IMG/VR virus record: IMGVR_UViG_2917393062_000005
Location: 1 to 36,279 of that record
Length of the DNA: 36,279 nucleotides
DNA from: a virus
Taxonomy: Duplodnaviria; Heunggongvirae; Uroviricota; Caudoviricetes
Strand: one strand, 5' to 3'
This document shows positions 4,308 to 36,279 of the stretch, one piece after another. Below the pieces are notes generated by a model that saw only the letters and a list, made by a program, of their open reading frames with translations, searched no databases and was not told where the DNA came from. Position 1 is the first letter of the stretch; each line of letters begins with the position of its first letter. A program made the position numbers and the translations under genes.

Positions 4308-5492
4308 ATGAGTGAAACTCGTTTTCATGGTGCCCGTGTTACGGAAAGTACCGACTTGGTAACAGCGATTAATGATGTTGATTCCAGTGTTATCGGTATC
4401 GTGGCAACGGCGGATGATGCGGATGCGGAGCTGTTCCCGCTGAACAAGCCCACACTGCTGACCCGCGTCAATGACGTGCTGGGAAAATGCGGAACAACGG
4501 GGACGCTTTATCGTGCGCTTAAGGCCATCGCAGACCAGGTGAGCACAAAGGTGATCGTCGTTCGCGTGGCTGAACACAAAGAAGAAGACGGAAAGACGCA
4601 GGATCAACTGGTTATCGGTGGTTCTGAGGATGACGGCAGCTATACGGGGATGTATGCGCTGCTTGTTGCAGAGCAGGATGAAAGCATCGGATACCGTCCG
4701 CGTATTCTGGCCGCGCCGGAGCTGGACACGGAGGCGGTAACAAAATCCCTGTGCGTGATTGCGGGTAAACTGCGCGCGTTTGTGTATGCCTCATGTCACG
4801 GCTGTAACACGATGGCTGAGGCGATTACCTACCGCCAGAAATTCAACGAACGTGAGGTGATGCTCTTATGGCCGGACTTCATCGCCTACAACCCGAAAAG
4901 TGGCAAAAACGAAACGTTCCCCGCGCCTGCCTATGCGTGCGGCCTTCGTGCGTACATTGACCATGAGCAGGGCTGGCACAAATCGCTGTCCAACGTTCCG
5001 GTTAAAAATGTGCTGGGGATGTCCAGGCATGTGTTCTGGTCGTTGCAGGCCGAAGACAGTGATGCCAACAGCCTCAACAACAAAGAAATCACGACCATTA
5101 TTCGTCGCAACGGGTTCCGCTTCTGGGGCAACCGCACACCGGAAACGAACGCCTACATCTTTGAGGTGTATACCCGAACCGCACAGGTGCTGGCTGATTC
5201 AATTGCGGAAGCGCAGTTTGAAACCATCGACAGTCCACTGACGCCTGCGAACGTGAAAGATGTTATCAGTGCCATCAGGGCAAAACTGGATTCACTGGTT
5301 ACTGCCGGGAAACTGATTGGCGCGGAGTGCTGGTATGACGTGGTGGATAATAGCACCACGGATTTACGTCAGGGGCGTGTGCGTATTCGCTACAAATATA
5401 CGCCCGTTCCGCCACTGGAAGACATGGAGCTTTACCAGACGTTTACTGATGAATACTTTGAACCCGCATTTGCGGTGCTGGGAGGTGCCTGA
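4308..5492 (+). CDS. FI: Contractile tail sheath protein FI
   Basis: 394 aa; AELFPLNKP, GFRFWGNRT and YKYTPVPPLE motifs match P2 FI. Confidence 0.93.
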   Translation: MSETRFHGARVTESTDLVTAINDVDSSVIGIVATADDADAELFPLNKPTLLTRVNDVLGKCGTTGTLYRALKAIADQVSTKVIVVRVAEHKEEDGKTQDQLVIGGSEDDGSYTGMYALLVAEQDESIGYRPRILAAPELDTEAVTKSLCVIAGKLRAFVYASCHGCNTMAEAITYRQKFNEREVMLLWPDFIAYNPKSGKNETFPAPAYACGLRAYIDHEQGWHKSLSNVPVKNVLGMSRHVFWSLQAEDSDANSLNNKEITTIIRRNGFRFWGNRTPETNAYIFEVYTRTAQVLADSIAEAQFETIDSPLTPANVKDVISAIRAKLDSLVTAGKLIGAECWYDVVDNSTTDLRQGRVRIRYKYTPVPPLEDMELYQTFTDEYFEPAFAVLGGA

Positions 5493-6004
5493 TGGCTGTG
5501 CCAAAACATCTTCGCTTTTTTACGCTGTTTGTGGATGGTGAAAACGAAGTGGGTAAGGTGACGTCCGTCACTCTGCCTAAGCTGACGCGCAAAACCGACA
5601 GCTACCGGGGGGGCGGCATGATGGGTGCGGTGAGTATTGATCTCGGTCTGGACGACTCCGCGCTTGATGCGAGCTTTGTCATGGGGGGCGCAGTTCGTGA
5701 GCTGTTCCTTAAGTATGGCGGCACGATTGACGGCACGCTGCTGCGTTTTGCGGGTGAATACTACACCGATGCAGAAAGCGACCTGTATGAAGTCGAAATG
5801 CGCGGACGTGTGACGGAAATTGATATGGGGGAAGCCAAACAGGGCGAAGCCACATCACACACTTACGCCATTAAAAACACCTACTACAAGCTGAGTGTTA
5901 ACGATCGCCCGTTGTGGGAGATTGACCTGCTGAACTTCATTTACCGGAAGGACGGCAAGGACATTGTGCCCGATCGCATCCGTTCCGCGCTTGGGCTTGG
6001 CTGA
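5492..6004 (+). CDS. FII: Tail tube protein FII
   Basis: 170 aa starting MAVPKHLRFFTLFVDGE; start overlaps the FI stop (ATGA-type coupling). Confidence 0.9.
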   Translation: MAVPKHLRFFTLFVDGENEVGKVTSVTLPKLTRKTDSYRGGGMMGAVSIDLGLDDSALDASFVMGGAVRELFLKYGGTIDGTLLRFAGEYYTDAESDLYEVEMRGRVTEIDMGEAKQGEATSHTYAIKNTYYKLSVNDRPLWEIDLLNFIYRKDGKDIVPDRIRSALGLG

Positions 6005-6058
6005 TAAGTAATATGCAGGCGGCGCAGTGCGTCGCCTCTGACTGAAAGGAGTTTTCTG

Positions 6059-6424
6059 ATGAAAGAGACGAAAAACATCGATACCGAAAACACGGTCGTT
6101 GCTGAAACAGCGAAAGAAACCAGTGAGCGTGGCGTAAAACTTACCCAACCAATTGAGCGAGGCGGCGAAAAAATCACGTATGTGGAGATCACCGGAGCTA
6201 TTGAGCAGGCTGGATCTCTGCGAGATTTGTCGCTGTCTGATGTGCTGAATCTGAAAGCGGAATCCATGTTTACGCTGCTGTCACGCGTGACATCACCGCG
6301 ACTGGATGAAGTGACGATCAAAAAAATGGCATCCCGTGACTTTATTCAGTTATGTGTGGTTGCCGTAAATTTTTTGAGCGGTGCGGACTCTGGCGGGAAG
6401 AACGAACAGGCGACGGAAGCCTGA
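6059..6424 (+). CDS. E: Tail assembly chaperone E (zero-frame product)
   Basis: Position between FII and T; contains the slippery heptamer; paired with an overlapping -1-frame ORF. Confidence 0.8.
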   Translation: MKETKNIDTENTVVAETAKETSERGVKLTQPIERGGEKITYVEITGAIEQAGSLRDLSLSDVLNLKAESMFTLLSRVTSPRLDEVTIKKMASRDFIQLCVVAVNFLSGADSGGKNEQATEA

Positions 6425-25508: not shown

Positions 25509-25916
25509 TTATCTTTTATAGCCTTGCCCCTTCCTGGCCAACGCCCTGATGGCCGGGCGTGCCAACACCATATTTTGGCAATGATGAATTGCCCGGCAAA
25601 ATTCATCTCTACCCATTGGATGCTCAACTGGCAATGTTAAATACAGGTTCCATGCGTCGCCTAAAAGTTGGGCTATCTTTTGTTCTTCAGATGTCAGCAA
25701 GCAAGCGGTATCCGTAAAATAATCATACTTTTCATGTATGTTATTTAACGGTTTTGTCTGTAGTGCAGCCTGAGCTATACGGTATGCCTGAAGCATACGG
25801 GCGTCGTTGATATCCATTCCGAACGGAATTTCTGATGATTGTGACTCTGCATCTTCAAGCCTGGCAATTTCTTTACGTAAGAAGTATTTCAACTCTTGTT
25901 TCTGTTTTCTGTTCAT
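25509..25916 (-). CDS. Hypothetical protein (about 135 aa) at the cos-proximal accessory locus
   Basis: ORF with AAGGA RBS before ATG at 25916 (MNRKQKQELKYF...); no family recognised. Occupies the tin/old-equivalent position of P2. Confidence 0.6.
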   Translation of the reverse strand: MNRKQKQELKYFLRKEIARLEDAESQSSEIPFGMDINDARMLQAYRIAQAALQTKPLNNIHEKYDYFTDTACLLTSEEQKIAQLLGDAWNLYLTLPVEHPMGRDEFCRAIHHCQNMVLARPAIRALARKGQGYKR

Positions 25917-26012
25917 GCTTTTTTCCTTTTTCTCTGTCAATGTGTTGCATTGTGTCCCCCTTGTTTATGTTCCCGGATTAAAGTCATCAGGCGGATGCGC
26001 CCTGATGTTGTG

Positions 26013-26324
26013 TTATTCGGGAAATAACGCCCGGATATTTCCGGCCATCTGACTGGTTATCTGTGCGGTTGATACTGGCTGTGACGCGGGGCATTCTGTC
26101 CTGGTTTGTGTCACTGATAACGCCTCATCGTCAGCCCATGCAGCCAGTCGGTAAGCCTCTGCCGGATTCATTTTCAGAAGAGCCAGCCCGGCCAGAAAAG
26201 CCACGCGTTGGCCGCTTTTGCGGGCTTCTGGTGTAAGGCTGTCCAGCCAGGCGCATGCTTCGCTTTCGTTCTTGACGGCCGCAGGCTTCAGATAGAAACT
26301 TATCCGTCTGGTTGGTGTCGTCAT
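26013..26324 (-). CDS. parR: ParR/StbB-like centromere-binding partition adaptor
   Basis: About 104 aa from MTTPTRRISFYLKP; AAGGAG RBS; immediately downstream of parM; resembles R1 ParR (FKLNPD..., RAALTAGLALY, ...LFP) as recalled. Confidence 0.65.
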   Translation of the reverse strand: MTTPTRRISFYLKPAAVKNESEACAWLDSLTPEARKSGQRVAFLAGLALLKMNPAEAYRLAAWADDEALSVTQTRTECPASQPVSTAQITSQMAGNIRALFPE

Positions 26325-26328
26325 TGGT

Positions 26329-27288
26329 TTACTCCTTGTCCATTGCGTACAGCCCATTAACCAGAGCAAACTGTGGCACCCCGTCCGCGATGAAAGTCGC
26401 ATTAACTCCGCAGGCTTCGCGGATAGCGGGTGCCACAATCTCCGCCCCTCCACCGACAACCATCACCCGCCCGTAACCCGAAAAACCCGCCAGCGCGCGG
26501 ATCACGCGTTGTTTCAGTGTTTCTTCCTTTTCACGAATAACCGCCATCAGGCTGGCGTAATGCGCGTCATTGTGGATGTGCTGGCGCAGCCAGGCTTCAT
26601 CATGGCGATGTTCGATAATGGTATTGGCGATGTGGTGACTGGTGCGCATACCGTTAGTGGCCATCACCGACAGTACGGCATCGGCCATCAGAGAAACGCC
26701 TACGTGTGGATCGCAAAACACCTGGCTGATACCTGCCAGTTGCCCCTGAACCTTTGCCACATCCAGCGTGGTTCCGCCCAAATCCACAATCAGCAGGGAT
26801 TCAAACGGACTCATGTCAGCCAGTGCCTTAAAGCCAGCCGGAATGGATTCAGGCATAACCCGCACGTTACGGATAGTGAATGCTTCGCCGTTCTGGTACT
26901 CCACCGGGCGCATAACGTTCGCTTTTTTGCGGTTGATGTTGGCCATGTCCGGCTGTGCGTTTGTGTCGAAATACTCGCTCAGTGGCAGGGTGACAACCAC
27001 ATCCACCTCCTGTGGCGTGATGCCTGATTTGACCAGCGCGTGATGAATGGCAATGACATTTACATCGCTGTATTGGTATTGCGTGTCGGTTGTCTGGACA
27101 AAGCGATCGCTGACCGGATCAAAACCATAGCGCACTCCATCAAGCATGTAGTTCGCGGGCTGCATGCCACCGAACGGCGCAGACCATTCCGACTTGAAGC
27201 TGTTCGGGCTGATGGCGTTGCGGCGTTCGCCGTTCTCAGTCCATGCCAGCTTGATGTTGGTGGAGCCGTCGTCGATACAAATTTTCAT
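26329..27288 (-). CDS. parM: ParM/StbA actin-like partition ATPase
   Basis: 319 aa with the ParM motif series: IDDGSTNIKL, ISPNSF, QYSDVNV, HHAL, QPDMANI.RKKAN, VMPESIPAG, DLGGTTLD, GISQ, GVSL, VGGGAE, LVNGLY. Confidence 0.85.
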   Translation of the reverse strand: MKICIDDGSTNIKLAWTENGERRNAISPNSFKSEWSAPFGGMQPANYMLDGVRYGFDPVSDRFVQTTDTQYQYSDVNVIAIHHALVKSGITPQEVDVVVTLPLSEYFDTNAQPDMANINRKKANVMRPVEYQNGEAFTIRNVRVMPESIPAGFKALADMSPFESLLIVDLGGTTLDVAKVQGQLAGISQVFCDPHVGVSLMADAVLSVMATNGMRTSHHIANTIIEHRHDEAWLRQHIHNDAHYASLMAVIREKEETLKQRVIRALAGFSGYGRVMVVGGGAEIVAPAIREACGVNATFIADGVPQFALVNGLYAMDKE

Positions 27289-27440
27289 GTCGCTTTTCCT
27301 TATGTTGATTAATTAATCGTTTACGGGATTCTGAAATCCCGTTTTTGCCTGTTTTGCGCGCACTTCATGTTTTATGGCACGTTTTTTGCTCATTTACGGG
27401 ATTTGTGAATCCCATTTCTGTCTGTTTTTTGTTTCCACTG
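27289..27440. repeat. Two about 36-bp direct repeats, each with an 8-bp palindrome, upstream of parM; candidate parC-like centromere/operator
   Basis: TTTACGGGATTCTGAAATCCCGTTTTTGCCTGTTTT (about 27320-27355) and TTTACGGGATTTGTGAATCCCATTTCTGTCTGTTTT (about 27393-27430); the second lies within the A 3' end. Also a 12-bp palindrome GATTAATTAATC at 27306-27317. Confidence 0.5.
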
Positions 27441-30172
27441 GTCAGGCCACCCCGCAGCAGGTCTGCTTTGCGGTGGGCGCGTTCAGTGGTTTCACTGATT
27501 CTCTGTGCGTGCTCTGCGTCACGGATGGCGCGCAGCATGTCAGAAAGCACGGTAACGGGGGTTTTCATGGTGTTCTGGTCCTGCTGAAGTGTGGATGCCA
27601 GACGTGCGGCGGCTTCAGGGTCTGATGCCCCCAGCTGTGCCAGATAGCTGGCGACCGGGTTATGGCGGATCTCCGTGCTGCTTACGCCGTGATTACGGCT
27701 CAGGCGCTGCCAGAGCTGCGTGATTCGGCTGTCCGGGCGGGTATCCGGTTTGCGTACAATTTCAAATCCCTGCGGTGCAATGATGCTGCCGTCAACGTAC
27801 AGACTGCCGCCCCGTAACAGGTGCTGCATCTGTTGTTCACCGATATGCAGGCCGAGAGATTCAGCAGACTCCCGCCATTCTTTAGCGAGTAATTCGTGGT
27901 TATCAGGCAAAGGCCGCTGCTGTTTGCGGCTCTGTGTCCAGCTCTGCATTTCATCACTGCTGTTTTTTGCCTGTTTGTCACGCAGCGAACGCATCAGCGC
28001 CCGGCGTTCGTGCCGTTTCAGTGAGCGCATCCATTCGTTCACTTCAACGCCGTCAGGGAGCTGCGGCCACGGTGCTGGCCGTTCTTCCGGCTGTTCTGTC
28101 CCGTTGTTGTCCGTTTCCTGTACACGGGGACAGTTATTGCCACGAGTCCAAGGGGCGGCAGGGCCGCCCTGAAGGTCAAAACCATTTTCGTGGGTGCTGT
28201 CTTCCGCTTCCGGTTTACGTCTTACCAGCTTCCAGTTATCCGGGTGCGTGCACACACGGGAGGATTCCCCGATGAGTGGCGACCAGATCCCGTAAATCTG
28301 TACACTCTGTTCGCCGTAATCGTTCAGCTCATCTGCGAGGTCGTAGGCTGTGCGAATCAGGTAGTCCTTGCGCGGAACAAGTACGCCACCCTGTTTTTCA
28401 ATGTAGGTGGCAAAACACCCGGCATCAGCGGCAGCAAGAACCGCATCCATTGCGTCATCCTTCAGCCGTTGCGGGCCTTCCGGGTTGCGTGCCATCTGGC
28501 TGGCAAGGCGGCGGAGTTCACGCCACACCTGACGGGAGGGAATGCCAAAGAACTGGAACTGGCGGACCCGGTGAAGGCGCGCCCAGCCGATGGCGCGTTC
28601 CACGCTCTCGGCCATTGATTTTCCGGTTTCGTGGTCAACGCGTGGCTTGCCCGTTTTCGGGTCGATGCCATCCACGGCGCGGCTGTCCAGGTTCTTTCCG
28701 ATGTAGGTGGCGATGTAGCTGGTTGGTGTGCCTTTTGAGCCGTCGACATACTCCACCTTAAAGCGCGGAGTAATATCATTGCCCAGCTCGTGGCGGTCTT
28801 CCTGAATGGCAATATCGCGGGTGATGGCCACGATGCTGTCGATTTCTTCCGGATGAGCAAAGACCATCATGTGCCAGTGCACGGTGCCGTCATGGTGAGG
28901 CTCCACCGTGCGGATGCCATACCAGCGCAGGCCGTCGCGGTTCAGTTTTTTGCGGACCGCCGCAAAAAACGTGTTAACCAGGTAATCGCTGGAGTCGCGC
29001 ATGGTGGCTCCGTTCCATTTGGGATTCGGATGACCGTTCTCTGTTGTGGCGTGGTATTTTGACGGGCAGGTGACAGTCAGAAACACCGCTTTGTCGCCAC
29101 GGGCTTCGGCCAGAAGTTCCAGCCCCTTCATGGTGGCCATCATTTCTGCCTTACGGTGAACTGGGTTACTTACTCCCGCGTAATACACTGTCTCGAGATC
29201 AATAGTGAACCCGTCTTCGTTTTCCAGCATGAAACTTTTCAGAAAATCGCGTGTTTTCTCGCGCTGTGCGCGAAACTCGCTTAACGCGTCCTGGCTCAGA
29301 TAGGGCGATGTTTTTCTGGAAACCAGACAGGCGGCGCGGAGTTGTTCTTCTCTCCACTCGCAACGTAACAGCCACAGTTTGCGTTTCCACCATTGCGCAC
29401 AGGTCAGGCGAAGGATTGCGCCCGGTAACAGTTCCGTATCCGGATCGCTCTTGTTCAGGGCTTCGTAATGTGGCGGCATGATGTGCAGGCATAATGCGAT
29501 ACGGGCCAGCATCCGGTAAGCCTTCAACATTACATCCATGGTCAGCTCGCCATCTCTGGCACCAAAGCCATCGCAGAGTGTTTCGAAGGTGCTGCTGAAC
29601 ATCGCCGCCGTCATGGTGGCCAGCGTCTGTATCTGGTGCTTGTTGAGCTGCGGCAGGTAAAGCAAATCGTCCAGGCGTTCACGCCCGGCAAGGGAGCGAT
29701 AACCCGGTGTCAGCCAGCGTCCGTCAGTGCGATCCAGACGTTCGAATATTTTGCGCAGGGTTCCGCGTGCATAGCGTTCAGCCTGCCAGCTCTTTTTGCC
29801 TTTCTGACGATCGGCTTCCTGTTTTTTGCGCAGGAAGGAGAGGTGGCGAATAAGCGGATCGCGCAGATAGGACGGCAGCAGGCGCAGCGAGGCCATGGCT
29901 TCATCCACCGCGCCGCGTGCCTGTTTTCTGGCGTCTCCTGCCAGTGTGATGGTTTTGTCCTGTTTTTCCTGTGCGTCCAGGCTTTTATTAATCAGGTTGC
30001 CCAGCGGCGTGGCGGAGAACGCCGCATCAGCCATTTCCTGGCAGCGCTCGTTCTCTGCCCGGTAGGCATCCAGCCAGGAGGAAAGCGCGGATTCAGGAGT
30101 GGGGATCTCCGTTCCTTCACGCCCCACTGCGTGGCGCGGTTGTTGCCAGTCCCTGATGTACTCTGCCGTCAT
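27365..30172 (-). CDS. A: Replication initiation endonuclease A (rolling-circle, GPA family)
   Basis: 935 aa; tandem-tyrosine active-site motif PTSYIATYIGKNLDS typical of P2 gpA-like proteins; located upstream of the cos-proximal locus. Confidence 0.85.
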   Translation of the reverse strand: MTAEYIRDWQQPRHAVGREGTEIPTPESALSSWLDAYRAENERCQEMADAAFSATPLGNLINKSLDAQEKQDKTITLAGDARKQARGAVDEAMASLRLLPSYLRDPLIRHLSFLRKKQEADRQKGKKSWQAERYARGTLRKIFERLDRTDGRWLTPGYRSLAGRERLDDLLYLPQLNKHQIQTLATMTAAMFSSTFETLCDGFGARDGELTMDVMLKAYRMLARIALCLHIMPPHYEALNKSDPDTELLPGAILRLTCAQWWKRKLWLLRCEWREEQLRAACLVSRKTSPYLSQDALSEFRAQREKTRDFLKSFMLENEDGFTIDLETVYYAGVSNPVHRKAEMMATMKGLELLAEARGDKAVFLTVTCPSKYHATTENGHPNPKWNGATMRDSSDYLVNTFFAAVRKKLNRDGLRWYGIRTVEPHHDGTVHWHMMVFAHPEEIDSIVAITRDIAIQEDRHELGNDITPRFKVEYVDGSKGTPTSYIATYIGKNLDSRAVDGIDPKTGKPRVDHETGKSMAESVERAIGWARLHRVRQFQFFGIPSRQVWRELRRLASQMARNPEGPQRLKDDAMDAVLAAADAGCFATYIEKQGGVLVPRKDYLIRTAYDLADELNDYGEQSVQIYGIWSPLIGESSRVCTHPDNWKLVRRKPEAEDSTHENGFDLQGGPAAPWTRGNNCPRVQETDNNGTEQPEERPAPWPQLPDGVEVNEWMRSLKRHERRALMRSLRDKQAKNSSDEMQSWTQSRKQQRPLPDNHELLAKEWRESAESLGLHIGEQQMQHLLRGGSLYVDGSIIAPQGFEIVRKPDTRPDSRITQLWQRLSRNHGVSSTEIRHNPVASYLAQLGASDPEAAARLASTLQQDQNTMKTPVTVLSDMLRAIRDAEHAQRISETTERAHRKADLLRGGLTSGNKKQTEMGFTNPVNEQKTCHKT

Positions 30173-31169: not shown

Positions 31170-31469
31170 TTACTGGTTCAGAAAAAAATCAAAAACCTTG
31201 TCAATGCGTTGCAGCAGCTCTTGCTGTATTGCTTCCGGCGTTTCCGGTTCGCCCGGCGACTCCAATGTCGCGCAGAAATCAGCGATTTCATGATGGAGCG
31301 TCAGGCGAATGGCAGGAGCCGTGGTTCTGGCGTGCTCCAGCTCATCCAGCAGTGCCAGCACAGCAGACGGCGAGAGCATTGCGCGAAATGCCAGTAATTT
31401 TTGAGGCGTTGCCATTCGTTGCAGAGCAAATGCCAGTTCGCGTAGCTTCTGGTGGTTGATGTTGCTCAT
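31170..31469 (-). CDS. Hypothetical early protein, 99 aa
   Basis: ORF in the early operon; start overlaps the upstream gene's stop. Confidence 0.55.
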   Translation of the reverse strand: MSNINHQKLRELAFALQRMATPQKLLAFRAMLSPSAVLALLDELEHARTTAPAIRLTLHHEIADFCATLESPGEPETPEAIQQELLQRIDKVFDFFLNQ

Positions 31470-31732
31470 GTTCTGGCTTCCTTCAGTAGCTGGTTAAACA
31501 TGTGAGTAAGTGGATTGCTACACCCGAACGGCATCGGGTTTACGTGGTAAGAAGCCTGGCCTCCTGTTTTGCGAGCGCGACCACCTGTGCTGCGGTTTGT
31601 TCTGATGACTAAGCCGCCACGCCAAAGTCGGCGTAACTCAGCATTAATGGCTGTGGTTGGAGTATTCAGTGCTGCGGCGATATCTCCGCCGCTACAACCC
31701 GGATGAGTAGCGATGTAGTCCAGAATGGTCAT
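31466..31732 (-). CDS. Hypothetical early protein, 88 aa, possible winged-helix DNA-binding fold
   Basis: ORF with translationally coupled neighbours; GGDIAAALNTPTTAINAELRRLWRGGLV is helix-turn-helix-like. Confidence 0.5.
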   Translation of the reverse strand: MTILDYIATHPGCSGGDIAAALNTPTTAINAELRRLWRGGLVIRTNRSTGGRARKTGGQASYHVNPMPFGCSNPLTHMFNQLLKEART

Positions 31733-32828: not shown

Positions 32829-33107
32829 TTAATCTGCTTTCTGAATTTCAGCTTCTGAATCCATACAAATAATTTCGATATAGGGTTCATCGCCATTAAC
32901 CTGACGTGCCTTTTCAGCTTCGCTAATGATTTCTCGTACGGTCTGGTACGGAAGCTCCACAGTCAGGCGCGTACCGTTCAGATAAACGTAAGTAGCTGCG
33001 TTTTTTTCGGATGGAACAACTCCGTCAATGGCTGATGCGCGTAATAACAGTTCACCGCGAAAATCAATAAAACGGATAAATACACCTTGTGCATGCTCTT
33101 TGGTCAT
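32829..33107 (-). CDS. Hypothetical early protein, about 92 aa
   Basis: Probable start at the internal Met (MTKEHAQGVFIRF...); the ORF track extends to 33167. Confidence 0.5.
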   Translation of the reverse strand: MTKEHAQGVFIRFIDFRGELLLRASAIDGVVPSEKNAATYVYLNGTRLTVELPYQTVREIISEAEKARQVNGDEPYIEIICMDSEAEIQKAD

Positions 33108-33117
33108 AAAGCACCTG

Positions 33118-33459
33118 TTATAAATCAGCCTGTTTAATAAAACTTTGCCCGCGAAGCAGACGATCAACCGTGCGAAGTGCTTCGTATAATGTGAAATCCT
33201 GCCCGAAGTGATTGTCGCCGCAGCTCAATGCAAAAATGCGGTTTCCGGTAAACGGATTGCGCGGGCATTTGTGGACCACGATTCCAGCTTTCTCAATCAG
33301 CCAGGCATGCTCGCCGATTTGTTTTACTGGGTAGCCATCCGGCGTTGCATGTGTATCACTCAGGCTGTAGCGGATGTTACTGCGTGATGCACTGGTAGCG
33401 AAACGGTTAGCGTGGCGTTCAGCACCATTACGAAAGCGTGAATTACGTTGCTGTTTCAT
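33118..33459 (-). CDS. Hypothetical early protein, 113 aa, basic N-terminus with Cys/His cluster
   Basis: ORF; HKCPRNPF...SCGDNHF could be a metal-binding motif. No confident family. Confidence 0.5.
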   Translation of the reverse strand: MKQQRNSRFRNGAERHANRFATSASRSNIRYSLSDTHATPDGYPVKQIGEHAWLIEKAGIVVHKCPRNPFTGNRIFALSCGDNHFGQDFTLYEALRTVDRLLRGQSFIKQADL

Positions 33460-33488
33460 ATTCCGACTTGCCTCAATGTGTTGAAGAT

Positions 33489-33698
33489 CTACAGTCCGAT
33501 GTTTCTTGTAAGTTTAAAAATTACTTCGGCCATAACTTCACTAATTACTCCAGTATCCCGGTTGGCCAGTGCCACTTCCCATGCGGCTTTTGCTCGTGTA
33601 GGGTCTAGCCGACCTGATTTTTGTTGTGTAATGATGGAACGTAAATCGTCATATAGTTCTTTTATGGCTGTTTCTTTTGTCTGTGTGAGGTTATCCAT
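33489..33698 (-). CDS. Hypothetical early protein, 69 aa
   Basis: ORF on the early-operon strand; its ATG shares a CCATGG palindrome with the opposite-strand gene. Confidence 0.4.
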   Translation of the reverse strand: MDNLTQTKETAIKELYDDLRSIITQQKSGRLDPTRAKAAWEVALANRDTGVISEVMAEVIFKLTRNIGL

Positions 33699-34137
33699 GG
33701 CAACACCTTCAAATATTGATGTTTTTAATGAAACTGTTGGTAAAACTTTTGCGTTTCTTTATGAGTCATTTCCCCGAAAAGTAACCATTGATGTTTGTGC
33801 TTTAACCGGGGTTTCCGCTCCAACGTTTGAAGAGAAGGACCCGGCGGTCAGAAAGCAAAAACATGAAGCTCTTGTTCTTCGTTATTACTCCATTGAGTGG
33901 CTTATTGCTGCTGGTTATGTATCTGCCGATGCTGTTCCTTTTGAAAGTTTCGATAAGGCGGTACTTACGGCTAAAGGACTTGAATTATTGAAACTTGATC
34001 CAGAGTCACTTAAGCAATCGCTTGGAGATAAACTTGTCGATGCAACCAAGAGTGGGGCGATAGATGCAATAAAAAGCACCGCCTCATCTGCACTTACCAC
34101 AGGTATCTCCTTTGCTTTTAAACACTTGTTTGGCTAA
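33697..34137 (+). CDS. Hypothetical protein, about 147 aa, AT-rich, opposite strand to the early operon
   Basis: ATG at 33697 with GAGG 7 nt upstream; lower GC than the rest of the prophage; no TM helices; no family recognised. The ORF track's upstream extension to 33448 is probably spurious. Confidence 0.55.
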   Translation: MATPSNIDVFNETVGKTFAFLYESFPRKVTIDVCALTGVSAPTFEEKDPAVRKQKHEALVLRYYSIEWLIAAGYVSADAVPFESFDKAVLTAKGLELLKLDPESLKQSLGDKLVDATKSGAIDAIKSTASSALTTGISFAFKHLFG

Positions 34138-34241
34138 TCGACTGATGCATCCTACATAACGTCCATTTTTGAAGTATCTACGGCGAAACCTCATGTGATG
34201 GGGTTCGCTGTTTTGCTGTTGCTTATTCATTTTTTGTGCCT

Positions 34242-34448
34242 CTATCCGATGAGCCAAATAACAAACGCTATGAGCACCGCACCAATGGTGATCGGAAAAA
34301 GACCTCTGGCATAAGCGGCGAGGTAATGAACGTTGAGAACAATAAAGCGTTCTTTTTGTCCTGTTAGCTTGCTAAGCAGATAAATCGCTATTACACCCAC
34401 TTCTAGGAATACAAGGTCCAAAATGGCGCTGGTGATATTGCTGGTCAT
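34242..34448 (-). CDS. Small membrane protein, 68 aa, two predicted TM helices
   Basis: ORF immediately downstream of cox; hydrophobic segments LDLVFLEVGVIAIYLL and ITIGAVLIAFVIWLIG. Confidence 0.5.
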   Translation of the reverse strand: MTSNITSAILDLVFLEVGVIAIYLLSKLTGQKERFIVLNVHYLAAYARGLFPITIGAVLIAFVIWLIG

Positions 34449-34454
34449 TTATGA

Positions 34455-34742
34455 TTAAAGCCCCAGCCACAACAACCATGCATCGCGGCGTTCTTTCGGC
34501 TGATCAAAAAACGCTTTGCGCATACCTGCGTTAAATGCTGGCAGATATACCCAGTTTTCTGATGCTCGCGTCTTCACTGAACCTGGTTTCACAAAGTCAA
34601 TCGTTGGTAACTTTGCAGCGTCAATCATGGTTCTGACGGTTGATTCTTTGCGACCAATCATCTTGGCAAATAGTTGATATGGCACCGCTTCAAGTGGATA
34701 TGGTGCTACCTGAATGAACCCCTCAAGCTCTGATTCGCTCAT
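34455..34742 (-). CDS. cox: Cox-like excisionase / early transcriptional regulator
   Basis: AVPYQLFAKMIG...WVYLPAFNAGMRKAF...RDAWLLWLGL matches P2 Cox (AIPYQEFAKLIG...WVYLPAWNNGL...RDGWLMWLGL). Confidence 0.88.
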   Translation of the reverse strand: MSESELEGFIQVAPYPLEAVPYQLFAKMIGRKESTVRTMIDAAKLPTIDFVKPGSVKTRASENWVYLPAFNAGMRKAFFDQPKERRDAWLLWLGL

Positions 34743-34857
34743 TGTGGTAATCTCCTTAATTCGTCCAAATGGCCCAAAATGGCTTATATAGGCTTATTTT
34801 GGCTATTTGAATGTTTTGTATTACATGTAACCCAATAGCGTGGAGTTTAGATCACAT
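34743..34857. promoter_or_regulatory. Divergent Pe/Pc promoter-operator region between cox and C, with three direct repeats
   Basis: GGCTTATATA / GGCTTATTTT / GGCTATTTGA at about 10-bp spacing in the cox-C intergenic region; P2-type C repressors bind direct repeats. Confidence 0.5.
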
Positions 34858-35178
34858 ATGATCCATAAATCAAGCCTTGGAGAAAAACTTCGCCTGATTC
34901 GAGAGGCAGAGGGATTGTCACGTAGAGAGATGGAAGAGGTGACAGGGGTATCTCAAAACAATCTCAAAAATTATGAAATATTGGGAAGAATGATACCTGG
35001 AGAAACGTTACTCCTGATTTTGAATCATCCTCGTTTTCGGAAGTATTCGGATTGGGTGATGTTTAATCAAACTAATGCTGCGACGGGGCAGATTGCTCCG
35101 CCTCTCTCTCTTGATGGCTTCTTCGATTCGGAGGGAGATCAGGTTTCAACCGAAACAAGCCAAAAATCACCCCGCTAA
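34858..35178 (+). CDS. C: Immunity repressor C (P2 C family)
   Basis: MIHKSSLGEKLRLIREAEGLSRREMEEVTG aligns with P2 C (MSNTISEKIVLMRKSEYLSRQQLADLTG); about 106 aa from the ATG at 34858 (ORF track starts at 34840). Confidence 0.85.
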   Translation: MIHKSSLGEKLRLIREAEGLSRREMEEVTGVSQNNLKNYEILGRMIPGETLLLILNHPRFRKYSDWVMFNQTNAATGQIAPPLSLDGFFDSEGDQVSTETSQKSPR

Positions 35179-35274
35179 GGCCAGAAAACTGGTTAGACCT
35201 GCTCTTTGTCTGGTCTGATTATTGCTGGAAAGAGGCTGGAGAAATTGTAGAGCGGTTCATTGGAGGGCTTCGCA

Positions 35275-36279
35275 ATGTCAATTAAGAAGCTCGAAGATGG
35301 TCGTTATTTGCTGGACATCAGGCCGAACGGACGCAAGGGAAAGCGCGTGCGTAAGGTATTTGACAAAAAATCGGTAGCGGTGGCCACTGAACGCTACATC
35401 ATGGCGAACGCTGAAAAGCGGGAATATATACAGGGCTACCGTGATCGCCGAACGCTAAATGATTTGCTTGAGTTGTGGTGGATGTATCACGGTCAACACA
35501 GGCGTAAGGCGGAAGAAGACCGAAAACAACTGCGCAACATAATCAATGAGCTTGGCGCTGATATGCAGGCTGTGGATCTTGATAAGCTGAAAATTATCGC
35601 GTGGCGTTCTCAAAAGATAGCTGATGGATTGAAACCGTCATCTGCTAACAGGTACATGAATCGGTTATCCGGAATGTTTACCGTGCTGAAAAAAATAGGT
35701 CTTTGGGATGCAGAACATCCGGTAAGGGGAATTTCTATTCTTTATGTATCTCCACGAGAAATGGCGTTCCTGTCACAGAAGGAAGTTGCGTTATTGCTCG
35801 ATACATTGGAGGGCGATTACTGGCGTGTTGCTCTTTTGTGTTTAAGCACAGGAGCGCGCTGGAGTGAAGCCTGTAAGCTCCGTGGTGAACAGATAGTTCA
35901 TAACCGAGTGACGTTTCTTGAAACCAAAAATGGCCGAAAGAGAACAGTGCCAATTTCGCAGGCAGTTTGTGAGGCGATCAAAACCAGAGAAACAGGCAGC
36001 TTGTTTGAGGTGAAGTACCGGGAATTCTGTCTGGCGCTGAAAAGAGTTAAGCCCGATTTGCCAAAAGGCCAGGCTGCACATGTGCTGCGGCATACGTTCG
36101 CCAGCCATTTTGTGATGAACGGAGGAAACATTATTGCGCTTCAGAAGATTCTTGGCCACGCAACCATTCAGCAAACAATGGCATATGCACATTTTGCACC
36201 GGATTACCTGCAGGATGCGGTGGCCCTTAATCCGCTGAAAGGTGGCGTAAGTGTCCACGCAGTGTCCACGGGGGATTAA
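35275..36279 (+). CDS. int: Tyrosine integrase (P2 Int family)
   Basis: MSIKKLEDGRYLLDIRPNGRKGKRVRKVFDKKS matches the P2 Int N-terminus; catalytic-region motifs LSTGARWSEA, HVLRHTFASH and MAYAHF. The ORF track starts at 35260. Confidence 0.93.
   Translation: MSIKKLEDGRYLLDIRPNGRKGKRVRKVFDKKSVAVATERYIMANAEKREYIQGYRDRRTLNDLLELWWMYHGQHRRKAEEDRKQLRNIINELGADMQAVDLDKLKIIAWRSQKIADGLKPSSANRYMNRLSGMFTVLKKIGLWDAEHPVRGISILYVSPREMAFLSQKEVALLLDTLEGDYWRVALLCLSTGARWSEACKLRGEQIVHNRVTFLETKNGRKRTVPISQAVCEAIKTRETGSLFEVKYREFCLALKRVKPDLPKGQAAHVLRHTFASHFVMNGGNIIALQKILGHATIQQTMAYAHFAPDYLQDAVALNPLKGGVSVHAVSTGD
36252..36264. repeat. Candidate attR core (TGTCCACGCAGTG) inside the int 3' end
   Basis: Identical to 1162-1174, with partial matches in the flanks. 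Confidence 0.5.

What the first reader, a model, noticed from the sequence alone, without database searches (positions are those of the whole stretch)
33480..34450. AT-rich island in the early region with an opposite-strand 147-aa gene and a small two-TM protein
Between cox and the remaining early genes is a low-GC block containing a well-supported ORF (33697-34137, plus strand) transcribed against the early operon. Its ATG shares a CCATGG palindrome with the start of a 69-aa minus-strand ORF, and next to it is a 68-aa two-TM protein on the minus strand. Opposite-strand, compositionally foreign genes in prophage early regions are often lysogen-expressed conversion or exclusion genes. Neither protein matches a family I recognise, so this is a candidate undescribed exclusion or abortive-infection pair.
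Basis: partly seen in the sequence, partly recalled or inferred. Interest (0 to 1): 0.6.

Follow-up and report, generated by a model that had tools for sequence, protein, structure and literature searches.

The report
Head-to-head prophage gene pair, likely defence
A 0.7-kb cassette inserted in the early operon of this P2-like prophage carries two uncharacterised genes that start back-to-back on opposite strands. The same pair recurs in many prophages as a lone backward gene plus a small forward partner, the layout known for prophage defence genes with a self-immunity protein, but no function has been tested.

Summary

**What is there**
- The 68-aa two-TM protein is an ordinary, lineage-conserved early gene that follows cox in P88-like phages. 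It is not part of the island.
- The island is a ~0.7-kb cassette (about 33463-34154) that P88 and Shae_phiSM lack.
- It holds the 146-aa plus-strand gene and the 69-aa minus-strand gene. Their ATGs overlap in CATG.

**Evidence that the pair is a unit**
- Both genes are under purifying selection.
- The large protein belongs to a big unnamed family: 1,594 clusters at 50% identity, PHROG 2266 "unknown", no Pfam or PADLOC match.
- It has an acidic winged-helix domain with a hypervariable patch and a basic amphipathic tail.
- The partner is a confident three-helix bundle.
- In 73 of 114 distinct contexts the partner sits divergently next to the large gene, usually with the same CATG overlap.
- The slots differ: after cox, the gpA-gpQ hotspot, tube-TAC, and a slot between terminase-sized and portal-sized genes.
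- The large gene is almost always the only gene facing against its operon, and the partner runs with the operon.

**Reading**
The layout matches Tha/Ith, Tai/Ati and Tab/anti-Tab, without sequence homology to the two pairs tested (Tai/Ati, Tab/anti-Tab). My best reading (about 0.45) is a lysogen-expressed defence protein plus a lytic-cycle self-immunity protein. This is unproven.

The parts
33463..34154 (.). Two-gene cassette, inserted relative to P88-like relatives
   Evidence: blastn against Shae_phiSM (L002) and P88 (L003): homology ends at 33438/33462 and resumes at 34155/34246. Only 1 of 5,426 complete E. coli genomes has the whole block at high identity. Ten have any DNA-level match and 3 have it full-length.
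33697..34137 (+). 146-aa gene on the strand opposite the early operon. Encodes an acidic winged-helix domain (residues 1-100) with a hypervariable patch (about 31-60) and a conserved, mildly basic amphipathic C-terminal tail (about 109-146). Proposed lysogen-expressed effector.
33489..33698 (-). 69-aa partner gene, co-directional with the early operon. Three-helix bundle. Proposed cognate neutraliser (self-immunity) made in the lytic cycle.
   Evidence: Conserved family with core I..Q.....[ML]D..RA..(Y)W...L.......[VIL]L.[DE][AV]L. 144 database hits, none named. AF2 pLDDT 93. dN/dS 0.2-0.3. Divergent and adjacent to the large gene in 73 of 114 distinct contexts.
33696..33699 (.). CATG in which the two start codons overlap by 2 nt. 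Each gene's Shine-Dalgarno sequence lies inside the other gene's first codons.
   Evidence: Sequence. The same CATG overlap occurs in 81 of 121 loci, from E. coli to Pseudomonas, Bilophila and a Phycisphaerae MAG.
34180..34222 (+). Candidate one-directional intrinsic terminator for the plus-strand gene: a stem of about 13 bp followed by GUUUUGCUGUU.
   Evidence: Weak: the fold z-score of the 96-nt stretch is -0.74, and the hairpin lies in DNA shared with phages that lack the cassette.
34242..34448 (-). 68-aa two-TM protein. NOT part of the cassette; a conserved early gene of the P88 lineage that follows cox.
   Evidence: PHROG 14475. Present after cox in P88, Shae_phiSM, PhiR44_2 and Chuche. 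More than 400 complete E. coli genomes match only the cox-side part of the query, which in the listed hits starts at 34155 and includes this gene, without the cassette. Absent from other phages that carry the pair (L006).
34455..34742 (-). cox, first gene of the early (lytic) operon. Its transcription would read antisense through the 146-aa gene and then into the partner. Context only.
   Evidence: Pfam Phage_Cox, 1.2e-22.
33118..33459 (-). DUF4761 early gene, the left border of the cassette. Context only.
   Evidence: Pfam DUF4761, 3.7e-69.

Best explanation
The cassette is a mobile two-gene accessory module (a moron) of temperate phages, organised as a 'non-contiguous operon'.

**Proposed mechanism**
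- The 146-aa gene faces against the host operon and has its own promoter. It is made in the lysogen and acts on superinfecting phages.
- It probably binds a phage protein through the hypervariable face of its acidic winged-helix domain. Its conserved amphipathic tail would be the effector or assembly element.
- The 69-aa three-helix partner is transcribed only with the phage's own lytic operon (here Pe: cox, the 68-aa gene, then the partner).
- The partner binds and neutralises the 146-aa protein, so the prophage is not hit by its own defence.
- The same lytic transcription runs antisense across the 146-aa gene and lowers its expression.

**Shown**
- The cassette borders.
- Both genes are coding and conserved.
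- The conserved head-to-head architecture.
- The nested antisense placement in many different phage operons and hotspots.
- The fold classes.

**Inferred**
- The timing of expression.
- The protein-protein neutralisation.
- The anti-phage activity and its target.
For: 1. **The pair is a unit.** In 73 of 114 distinct contexts a recognisable partner lies divergently and adjacent to the large gene. In 81 of 121 loci the start codons overlap in CATG.
2. **It moves between unrelated slots.**
   - cox to next early gene in three different P2-like lineages (window; L006; Morganella L010).
   - The gpA-gpQ defence hotspot in Klebsiella and Salmonella phages (hotspot defined in PMC9122126).
   - Tail tube to TAC.
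   - A recurrent Pseudomonas slot between genes I infer, from size only, to be terminase and portal.
   - An ICE.
   - An island next to Hachiman.
3. **Operon placement.** The gene downstream of the large gene is convergent in 101 of 112 contexts. Among loci with a partner the figure is 70 of 73, so the large gene is the lone antisense gene and the partner runs with the operon.
4. **Both orphan states exist.**
   - The large gene occurs alone in an ICE (no partner by HMM).
   - In the defence island only a 23-aa remnant, next to an IS, sits where the partner would be.
   - The partner occurs alone, next to a 16-codon remnant of the large gene, in a 186-like early operon in 7 E. coli genomes.
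   - A defence/counter-defence pair predicts these states. A toxin-antitoxin pair does not.
5. **Protein features.** The large protein is acidic: mean net charge -4.9, and 94% of 157 family members are negative. Its recognition-helix and wing regions are acidic to neutral. It has a hypervariable block (3.3-3.6 bits of entropy against 1.1-2.2 in the flanks). Together these suggest a protein-recognition surface rather than DNA binding.
6. **Rate.** The partner evolves 1.5-2 times faster than the large gene, but under purifying selection.
7. **Precedents with the same logic.**
   - Tha/Ith (PMC11087260).
   - Tai/Ati of phi80, whose genes are also head-to-head with a 20-nt overlap (PMC11364771).
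   - Tab/anti-Tab (PMC10884400).
   - TerI/anti-TerI (bioRxiv 10.1101/2025.02.27.640495).
Against: - There are no expression, interaction or phenotype data of any kind.
- No convincing sigma-70 promoter was found for either gene. The scans also fail to find Pe and Pc, so they are uninformative.
- There is no homology to any known defence protein (PADLOC; Tai, Ati, Tab and anti-Tab).
- 39 of 114 contexts, some inside phage operons, lack a detectable partner. Either the partner is dispensable there or it has diverged beyond detection.
- The closest fold matches are MarR-type regulators, so a regulatory role is not excluded.
- Guilt by association with hotspots is weak evidence. Those hotspots also carry partition systems and toxins (PMC9122126).
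- The orphan partner in L131 could simply be a recent deletion.
Confidence: 0.45

Rival explanations
1. Divergent regulator-target pair. The 146-aa protein is a MarR-like dimeric winged-helix transcription factor, with its N- and C-terminal helices forming the dimer interface. It controls the small gene, or other cargo, transcribed divergently from it.
For: - The secondary-structure order resembles MarR, and the low-confidence C-terminal helices could be a dimer interface that a monomer model cannot place.
- MarR-type genes are classically divergent from their targets (established knowledge).
- In several partner-less loci a different gene of 170-230 aa lies divergently 50-90 nt upstream (L032, L035, L046, L050, L075, L089).
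Against: - No MarR or HTH Pfam model hits any of 18 members, even at E = 1.
- The family is acidic overall (-4.9), with an acidic recognition-helix region (-2.1) and a wing poor in K/R. That is atypical for DNA-binding winged helices.
- The CATG overlap leaves no intergenic operator.
- A regulator with one small target would not be expected to hop as a unit into late structural operons.
Confidence: 0.15
2. Toxin-antitoxin or addiction module. The large protein is a toxin, with the amphipathic tail attacking the membrane, and the small protein is its antitoxin, stabilising the prophage.
For: - It is a two-gene module with one small, fast-evolving helical partner.
- The tail is rich in G/A/S/T/L/K and amphipathic, like membrane-active peptides.
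- It is mobile and sits in hotspots where TA systems are common.
Against: - The genes are divergent, not co-transcribed.
- 34% of contexts keep an intact large gene with no detectable partner, including the ICE. In the defence-island copy only a 23-aa remnant sits next to an IS where the partner would be. An orphan toxin should be lethal.
- The tail is not a transmembrane segment: maximum 19-residue Kyte-Doolittle hydropathy averages 1.12, and only 1% of members reach 1.6.
Confidence: 0.1
3. Anti-defence locus. The small protein is an early-expressed inhibitor of a host defence system (Acr-like), and the winged-helix protein is its associated regulator (Aca-like).
For: - In P2-like phages the small gene sits directly after cox at the very start of the early operon, an ideal place for anti-defence genes.
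- It is small, helical and fast-evolving.
- It persists alone in L131.
Against: - Aca genes are co-directional and downstream of acr genes, not divergent and overlapping.
- In many phages the pair sits in late tail or head operons, which is too late for anti-defence.
- The large protein lacks DNA-binding character.
- The large gene occurs alone in non-phage islands.
Confidence: 0.1
4. A lysogenic-conversion or other accessory moron unrelated to phage defence (for example host physiology or envelope), with the small ORF as an unrelated or structural co-passenger.
For: - Hotspots also carry non-defence cargo such as partition systems and toxins (PMC9122126; this window's own gpA-gpQ slot holds ParM and a Plasmid_stab_B protein).
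- No defence homology was found.
Against: - The tight co-inheritance and conserved CATG overlap of the two genes argue for a functional couple.
- The systematic placement with the partner in the lytic operon and the large gene antisense points to life-cycle-coupled regulation.
Confidence: 0.15

Closest known systems
Tai/Ati of coliphage phi80 (tail assembly inhibition plus anti-Tai; PMC11364771)
   Same: - A prophage moron in which the defence gene is oriented against a lytic operon and the small counter-defence gene lies in that operon ('non-contiguous operon').
- In phi80 the two genes are also head-to-head with overlapping 5' ends (L125: 4366-4980 on the minus strand, 4961-5191 on the plus strand).
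- Found in several hotspots and mobile elements, and the counter-defence gene is present in only some carriers.
   Different: - No sequence similarity: hhalign probability 0.1% for the large proteins, and no BLASTP or hhalign match for the partners.
- Tai is about 204 aa.
- The overlap here is exactly 2 nt (CATG).
- The target and phenotype here are unknown.
Tab/anti-Tab of Pseudomonas phage JBD26 (PMC10884400)
   Same: A small prophage-expressed protein on the opposite strand inside a late operon, plus a small operon-encoded neutraliser that binds it. The same self-immunity logic.
   Different: - Tab is 83 aa.
- The genes are convergent with overlapping 3' ends and sit between the terminase subunits.
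- No sequence similarity.
Tha/Ith of S. aureus phage 80alpha (PMC11087260)
   Same: A non-contiguous operon that couples immunity to lysogeny and its inhibitor to the lytic cycle through antisense transcription, with protein-level inhibition by a small partner.
   Different: - Tha is a HEPN RNase and lies within the cI operon, with the inhibitor as the antisense gene. The polarity is reversed relative to this cassette.
- No HEPN domain here.
P2 exclusion genes old, tin and fun(Z), and the gpA-gpQ hotspot systems (PMC9122126)
   Same: Accessory genes of P2-like prophages in variable slots. Homologues of this pair occupy the gpA-gpQ hotspot in Klebsiella and Salmonella phages.
   Different: - In this window the pair sits in a different slot (cox to DUF4761), which that paper does not describe as a hotspot.
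- No homology to any PADLOC model.
MarR-family winged-helix regulators
   Different: - No profile match.
- Acidic surface.
- An extra amphipathic tail.
- No intergenic operator region.

Membership tests
PHROG 2266 (phage protein family, function unknown) | Full-length match to the family profile | tested here: met
   E = 3.3e-29, residues 4-141 on profile positions 2-143 of 144. This gives membership only; the family has no known function.
Tai/Ati (phi80) | Sequence homology of the large protein to TaiEcA | tested here: not met
   hhalign of A1 against phi80 orf63: probability 0.1%, E = 0.46.
Tai/Ati (phi80) | Sequence homology of the partner to AtiEcA | tested here: not met
   BLASTP finds no alignment. 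hhalign probability 0.04%.
Tai/Ati (phi80) | Defence gene antisense within a lytic operon, with the counter-defence gene adjacent in that operon | tested here: met
   Window layout. The downstream gene is convergent in 101 of 112 contexts, and in 70 of 73 with a partner.
Tai/Ati (phi80) | Blocks tail assembly of invading phages; constitutive expression in the lysogen | not testable with these tools
   Needs plaque assays, electron microscopy and western or RNA-seq data.
Tab/anti-Tab (JBD26) | [quoted passage not shown] | tested here: not met
   hhalign probabilities 0.3% and 0.5%. The window pair is in the early operon.
Tha/Ith (S. aureus) | HEPN RNase domain in the effector | tested here: not met
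   No HEPN hit in the window protein. One of 18 relatives has a noise-level HEPN_LA2681 hit at E = 0.079.
Type II toxin-antitoxin | Co-directional bicistronic operon, with the toxin never maintained without its antitoxin | tested here: not met
   The genes are divergent. 39 of 114 contexts have an intact large gene without a detectable partner.
MarR-family transcription factor | Match to the MarR, MarR_2 or HTH_27 profiles | tested here: not met
   No Pfam family for the window protein at E <= 0.1, and none in 18 relatives at E <= 1. The PDB profile search gives a MarR chain only at E = 0.32.
MarR-family transcription factor | Winged-helix fold with a basic recognition helix and wing for DNA contact | tested here: inconclusive
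DUF2513 (PF10711; UniRef's name for relative P0012) | Match to the Pfam DUF2513 profile | tested here: not met
   P0012 and 17 relatives were scanned against Pfam at E <= 1. DUF2513 was not among the hits.
Known anti-phage systems (PADLOC-DB v2) | Match of either protein to any model | tested here: not met
   No hit for the window proteins at E <= 1. Among 18 relatives the only hit is a noise-level Cmr5 match at E = 0.033.
   Met for the 68-aa two-TM gene only. Not met for the 146-aa and 69-aa genes, which are absent from P88 and Shae_phiSM.

The most novel reading that the evidence does not exclude
The 146-aa and 69-aa pair founds a large, unnamed family of prophage-borne anti-phage systems, present in more than a thousand protein clusters across Gammaproteobacteria and beyond. 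A winged-helix sensor or effector with a hypervariable recognition patch is made in lysogens. A dedicated three-helix self-immunity protein is made only in the carrier's own lytic cycle. The obligatory CATG head-to-head overlap acts as a built-in transcriptional toggle: the two mRNAs must overlap at their 5' ends, so expression of one suppresses the other.
Probability: 0.3. Interest if true: 0.7.

Novelty: new variant of a known kind. Interest (0 to 1): 0.55.

Why it matters
- **If the reading is right**, this adds a widespread and completely unannotated protein pair to the small, recently recognised class of prophage defences that carry their own self-immunity gene (Tha/Ith, Tai/Ati, Tab/anti-Tab, TerI).
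- **It points to a second variable slot in P2-like phages.** The position directly after cox would be a cargo site besides the published gpA-gpQ hotspot.
- **It offers a tractable test of operon architecture.** The conserved 2-nt start-codon overlap makes it a clean system for asking whether head-to-head overlapping transcription works as a lysogeny/lysis toggle.
- **It is easy to test**, because the module is only 0.7 kb.
- **If the reading is wrong**, the result is still a well-delimited, conserved two-gene family that deserves a name in Pfam or PHROGs.

Tried and rejected
**Database searches with no result**
- Pfam, NCBIfam and PADLOC scans of both proteins and of 18 relatives each found nothing.
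- PDB sequence-profile searches found nothing meaningful.
- Literature searches by accession and PHROG id found 0 papers. The search 'P2-like/hotspot/cox/anti-phage' also found 0.

**Fold searches**
- BFVD gave no match at E <= 0.001.
- The afdb50 library was unavailable.

**Homology to known pairs**
- Tai/Ati and Tab/anti-Tab were tested and rejected.

**Promoter scans**
- The consensus tool found 0 sites in 33000-35300, although Pe and Pc must lie there.
- My looser scan gave only 8/12 matches. One example is TTGCCT-16-TACAGT at 33468-33495. I did not use this as evidence.

**Candidate terminator at 34180-34222**
- It is plausible by eye but not statistically distinct, and it lies in shared DNA.

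**Ideas dropped**
- The two-TM protein as partner: rejected on synteny.
- The longer 229-aa reading of the plus-strand ORF from TTG 33448: rejected, because the homologues, RefSeq and the conserved CATG all start at 33697.
- The C-terminal tail as a transmembrane anchor: rejected on hydropathy.

**Tool failures**
- One protein search failed on queueing and was repeated.
Full report
**Setting.** The window is a P2-like prophage of the P88 (Xuanwuvirus) type.
- Right end: integrase (35260-36279, +), a C-type HTH repressor (34840-35178, +), and cox (34455-34742, -; Pfam Phage_Cox 1e-22).
- A leftward early operon follows: DUF4761, DUF4754, a MarR-like protein and the replication protein gpA (27365-30172).
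- The closest annotated relative is a prophage next to pdxB in E. coli FDAARGOS_943, 98% identical over the finding. There all the ORFs discussed here are annotated as hypothetical proteins.

**Checking the observation.** All three ORFs exist at the coordinates given.
- The 146-aa plus-strand ORF (33697-34137) and the 69-aa minus-strand ORF (33489-33698) overlap by two bases inside CCATGG.
- Each has a Shine-Dalgarno-like motif within the other's first codons (sequence).
- The 'AT-rich island' is only partly real. The cassette is 41.9% GC against 52.6% for the window, but the whole early/immunity region is 44.6% GC.

**What the island is.**
- blastn against Shae_phiSM and P88 places the borders of the extra DNA at about 33440/33463 and 34154.
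- The insert therefore contains only the 69-aa and 146-aa genes.
- The 68-aa two-TM gene (34242-34448; PHROG 14475) lies outside it. It follows cox in P88, Shae_phiSM, PhiR44_2 and Chuche.
- More than 400 complete E. coli genomes match only the cox-side part of the query. In the listed hits that part starts at 34155 and includes the two-TM gene, without the cassette.
- Other P2-like phages carry the pair without the two-TM gene (L006-L009).
The natural pair is the two head-to-head genes.
- The cassette is rare in E. coli: 10 of 5,426 complete genomes have any DNA-level match, and 3 have it full-length.

**Both genes are real.**
- Unsaturated comparisons between cassettes give dN/dS of 0.15-0.24 for the large gene and 0.20-0.30 for the small one.
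- The small gene accumulates 1.5-2 times more non-synonymous change.

**The large protein.**
- It matches PHROG 2266 (function unknown; E = 3e-29) and nothing in Pfam, NCBIfam or PADLOC.
- A profile search of 1.84 billion cluster representatives finds 1,594 clusters at E <= 1e-3 and 837 at E <= 1e-10. Almost all are 135-160 aa and match full-length, so this is a large single-architecture family with no name.
- AlphaFold2 gives a confident winged-helix domain for residues 1-100 (pLDDT about 90) and low-confidence helices for 102-146.
- Across 158 aligned sequences (157 family members plus the window protein), the 157 family members average net charge -4.9 and 94% are negative. The recognition-helix region (-2.1) and wing (-0.6) are not basic.
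- Residues about 31-60 are hypervariable: 3.3-3.6 bits of entropy against 1.1-2.2 in the flanking blocks.
- The tail is conserved, mildly basic and rich in G/A/S/T/L/K. It is amphipathic but not a transmembrane segment.
- I read this as a protein-recognition scaffold with an effector or assembly tail, not a classical DNA-binding repressor. That reading is an inference.

**The partner.**
- Small ORFs upstream of the homologues form a clear family, with core I..Q.....[ML]D..RA..(Y)W...L.......[VIL]L.[DE][AV]L.
- A profile search gives 144 hits, all 'hypothetical'. There is no Pfam match.
- AlphaFold2 gives a confident three-helix bundle (pLDDT 93). The structural neighbours are generic.

**Conserved architecture.** I collected 121 loci with homologues from IMG/VR, GTDB genomes and assemblies.
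- In 81 of them the large gene's ATG overlaps a divergent ATG in CATG.
- By HMM, 73 of 114 distinct contexts carry a recognisable partner, always divergent and adjacent. 39 have none, and 2 are odd.
- The taxa include E. coli, Yersinia, Morganella, Proteus, Klebsiella, Salmonella, Pectobacterium, many Pseudomonas, Halomonas, and even Bilophila and a Phycisphaerae MAG.

**Where it sits.** The pair occupies unrelated slots.
- After cox in three different P2-like lineages (window; L006; Morganella L010).
- The gpA-gpQ hotspot, described as a reservoir of defence systems (PMC9122126), in Klebsiella phage ST147-VIM1phi7.1, Salmonella phage FSL SP-004, and a very common Salmonella/Klebsiella prophage type recorded on at least 1,000 contigs.
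- Between the tail tube and the tail assembly chaperone.
- In many Pseudomonas prophages, between genes that I infer from size only to be terminase and portal.
- An ICE, without a partner.
- An island next to Hachiman, where an IS adjoins a 23-aa remnant in the partner's position.
- With crude ORF calling, the gene after the large gene is convergent in 101 of 112 distinct contexts, and in 70 of 73 with a partner. The gene beyond the partner is co-directional with it in 53 of 73.
- So the large gene is a lone antisense gene nested in an operon, and the partner belongs to that operon.
- Transcription from Pe in this window would run cox, the 68-aa gene, antisense across the 146-aa gene, then the partner and DUF4761.

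**Orphans.**
- The large gene survives without a partner in non-phage elements.
- Conversely, seven complete E. coli genomes carry an intact partner immediately after a 16-codon remnant of the large gene, in a 186-like early operon.
- Both states fit a defence gene with an optional counter-defence gene. They fit a toxin-antitoxin pair poorly.

**Comparison with known systems.**
- The layout is the 'non-contiguous operon' shown experimentally for Tha/Ith (PMC11087260) and Tai/Ati (PMC11364771). It resembles Tab/anti-Tab (PMC10884400) and TerI/anti-TerI (bioRxiv 10.1101/2025.02.27.640495).
- In phi80 the tai and ati genes are also head-to-head with a 20-nt overlap.
- There is no sequence relationship to Tai, Ati, Tab or anti-Tab, so this is not a member of those families.

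**Verdict.**
- Best explanation (confidence 0.45): a lysogen-expressed defence protein plus a lytic-operon self-immunity protein, reciprocally regulated by their overlapping divergent transcription.
- Rivals: a MarR-like regulator with a divergent target (0.15), a non-defence moron (0.15), a toxin-antitoxin pair (0.10), and an anti-defence gene with a regulator (0.10).
- What is firmly shown is the anatomy: a delimited cassette, two conserved coding genes, a deeply conserved CATG head-to-head arrangement, and nested antisense placement in many phage operons and hotspots.
- Expression timing, interaction, anti-phage activity and target are all inferred. Promoter scans were uninformative.
- The finding is a good experimental lead but not a demonstrated system.

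Noticed in passing
window 25509-27288: The prophage's own gpA-gpQ hotspot carries a plasmid-type partition module: ParM/StbA (26329-27288, -; Pfam StbA_N 3e-82) and a Plasmid_stab_B protein (26013-26459, -), plus an unknown 143-aa ORF (25509-25940, -). Rousset et al. report that about a quarter of P2-like phages carry such a system, so this is known (PMC9122126).
   Followed up: partly
L131 2489-2750 (E. coli EC2, NZ_CP058571.1) and six other complete genomes: An intact 64-aa partner gene sits next to a 16-codon remnant of the large gene (ATG...TTTAATGAAACG then a stop), in an early operon with a different (186-like) immunity region. This is either an orphan partner or a recent deletion.
   Followed up: partly
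window 33712-33735, and the same codons in L-loci: Codons 6-12 of the large gene (AAT ATT GAx ... TTT AAT GAA) keep AT-rich synonymous choices even in roughly 60% GC Pseudomonas genomes: 'AATAT' in 11 of 18 high-GC sequences. This may be a DNA- or RNA-level signal, such as a promoter or 5' element for the partner, embedded in the coding sequence. Codon bias was not formally tested.
   Followed up: partly
L033, L037, L042, L084 and other Pseudomonas loci (partner ORFs): Many Pseudomonas partner proteins end in a Cys-rich tail (for example PRCRCCRSC or CQCHCCRHC) that the enterobacterial ones lack. It could be a metal-binding or modification site.
   Followed up: no
L032, L035, L046, L050, L075, L089: Where no small partner is detectable, a larger divergent gene of 170-230 aa often lies 50-90 nt upstream of the large gene. 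It may be an alternative partner or cargo.
   Followed up: no
L090 4998-6419: Two tandem copies of the large gene (4998-5360 and 5860-6216, +) are followed by a partner-like ORF on the minus strand (6249-6419). This is an atypical arrangement.
   Followed up: no
L002 2618-3076 (Shae_phiSM) versus window 34155-34241: In Shae_phiSM the DUF4761 homologue is annotated as 152 aa. Its N-terminal extension runs into the DNA that, in the window, lies between the cassette and the two-TM gene and contains the candidate terminator hairpin.
   Followed up: no
window 31466-31732: An 88-aa MarR-type winged-helix protein lies inside the early operon (Pfam MarR_2, 2.5e-7). RefSeq also annotates it as MarR in the relative.
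   Followed up: no
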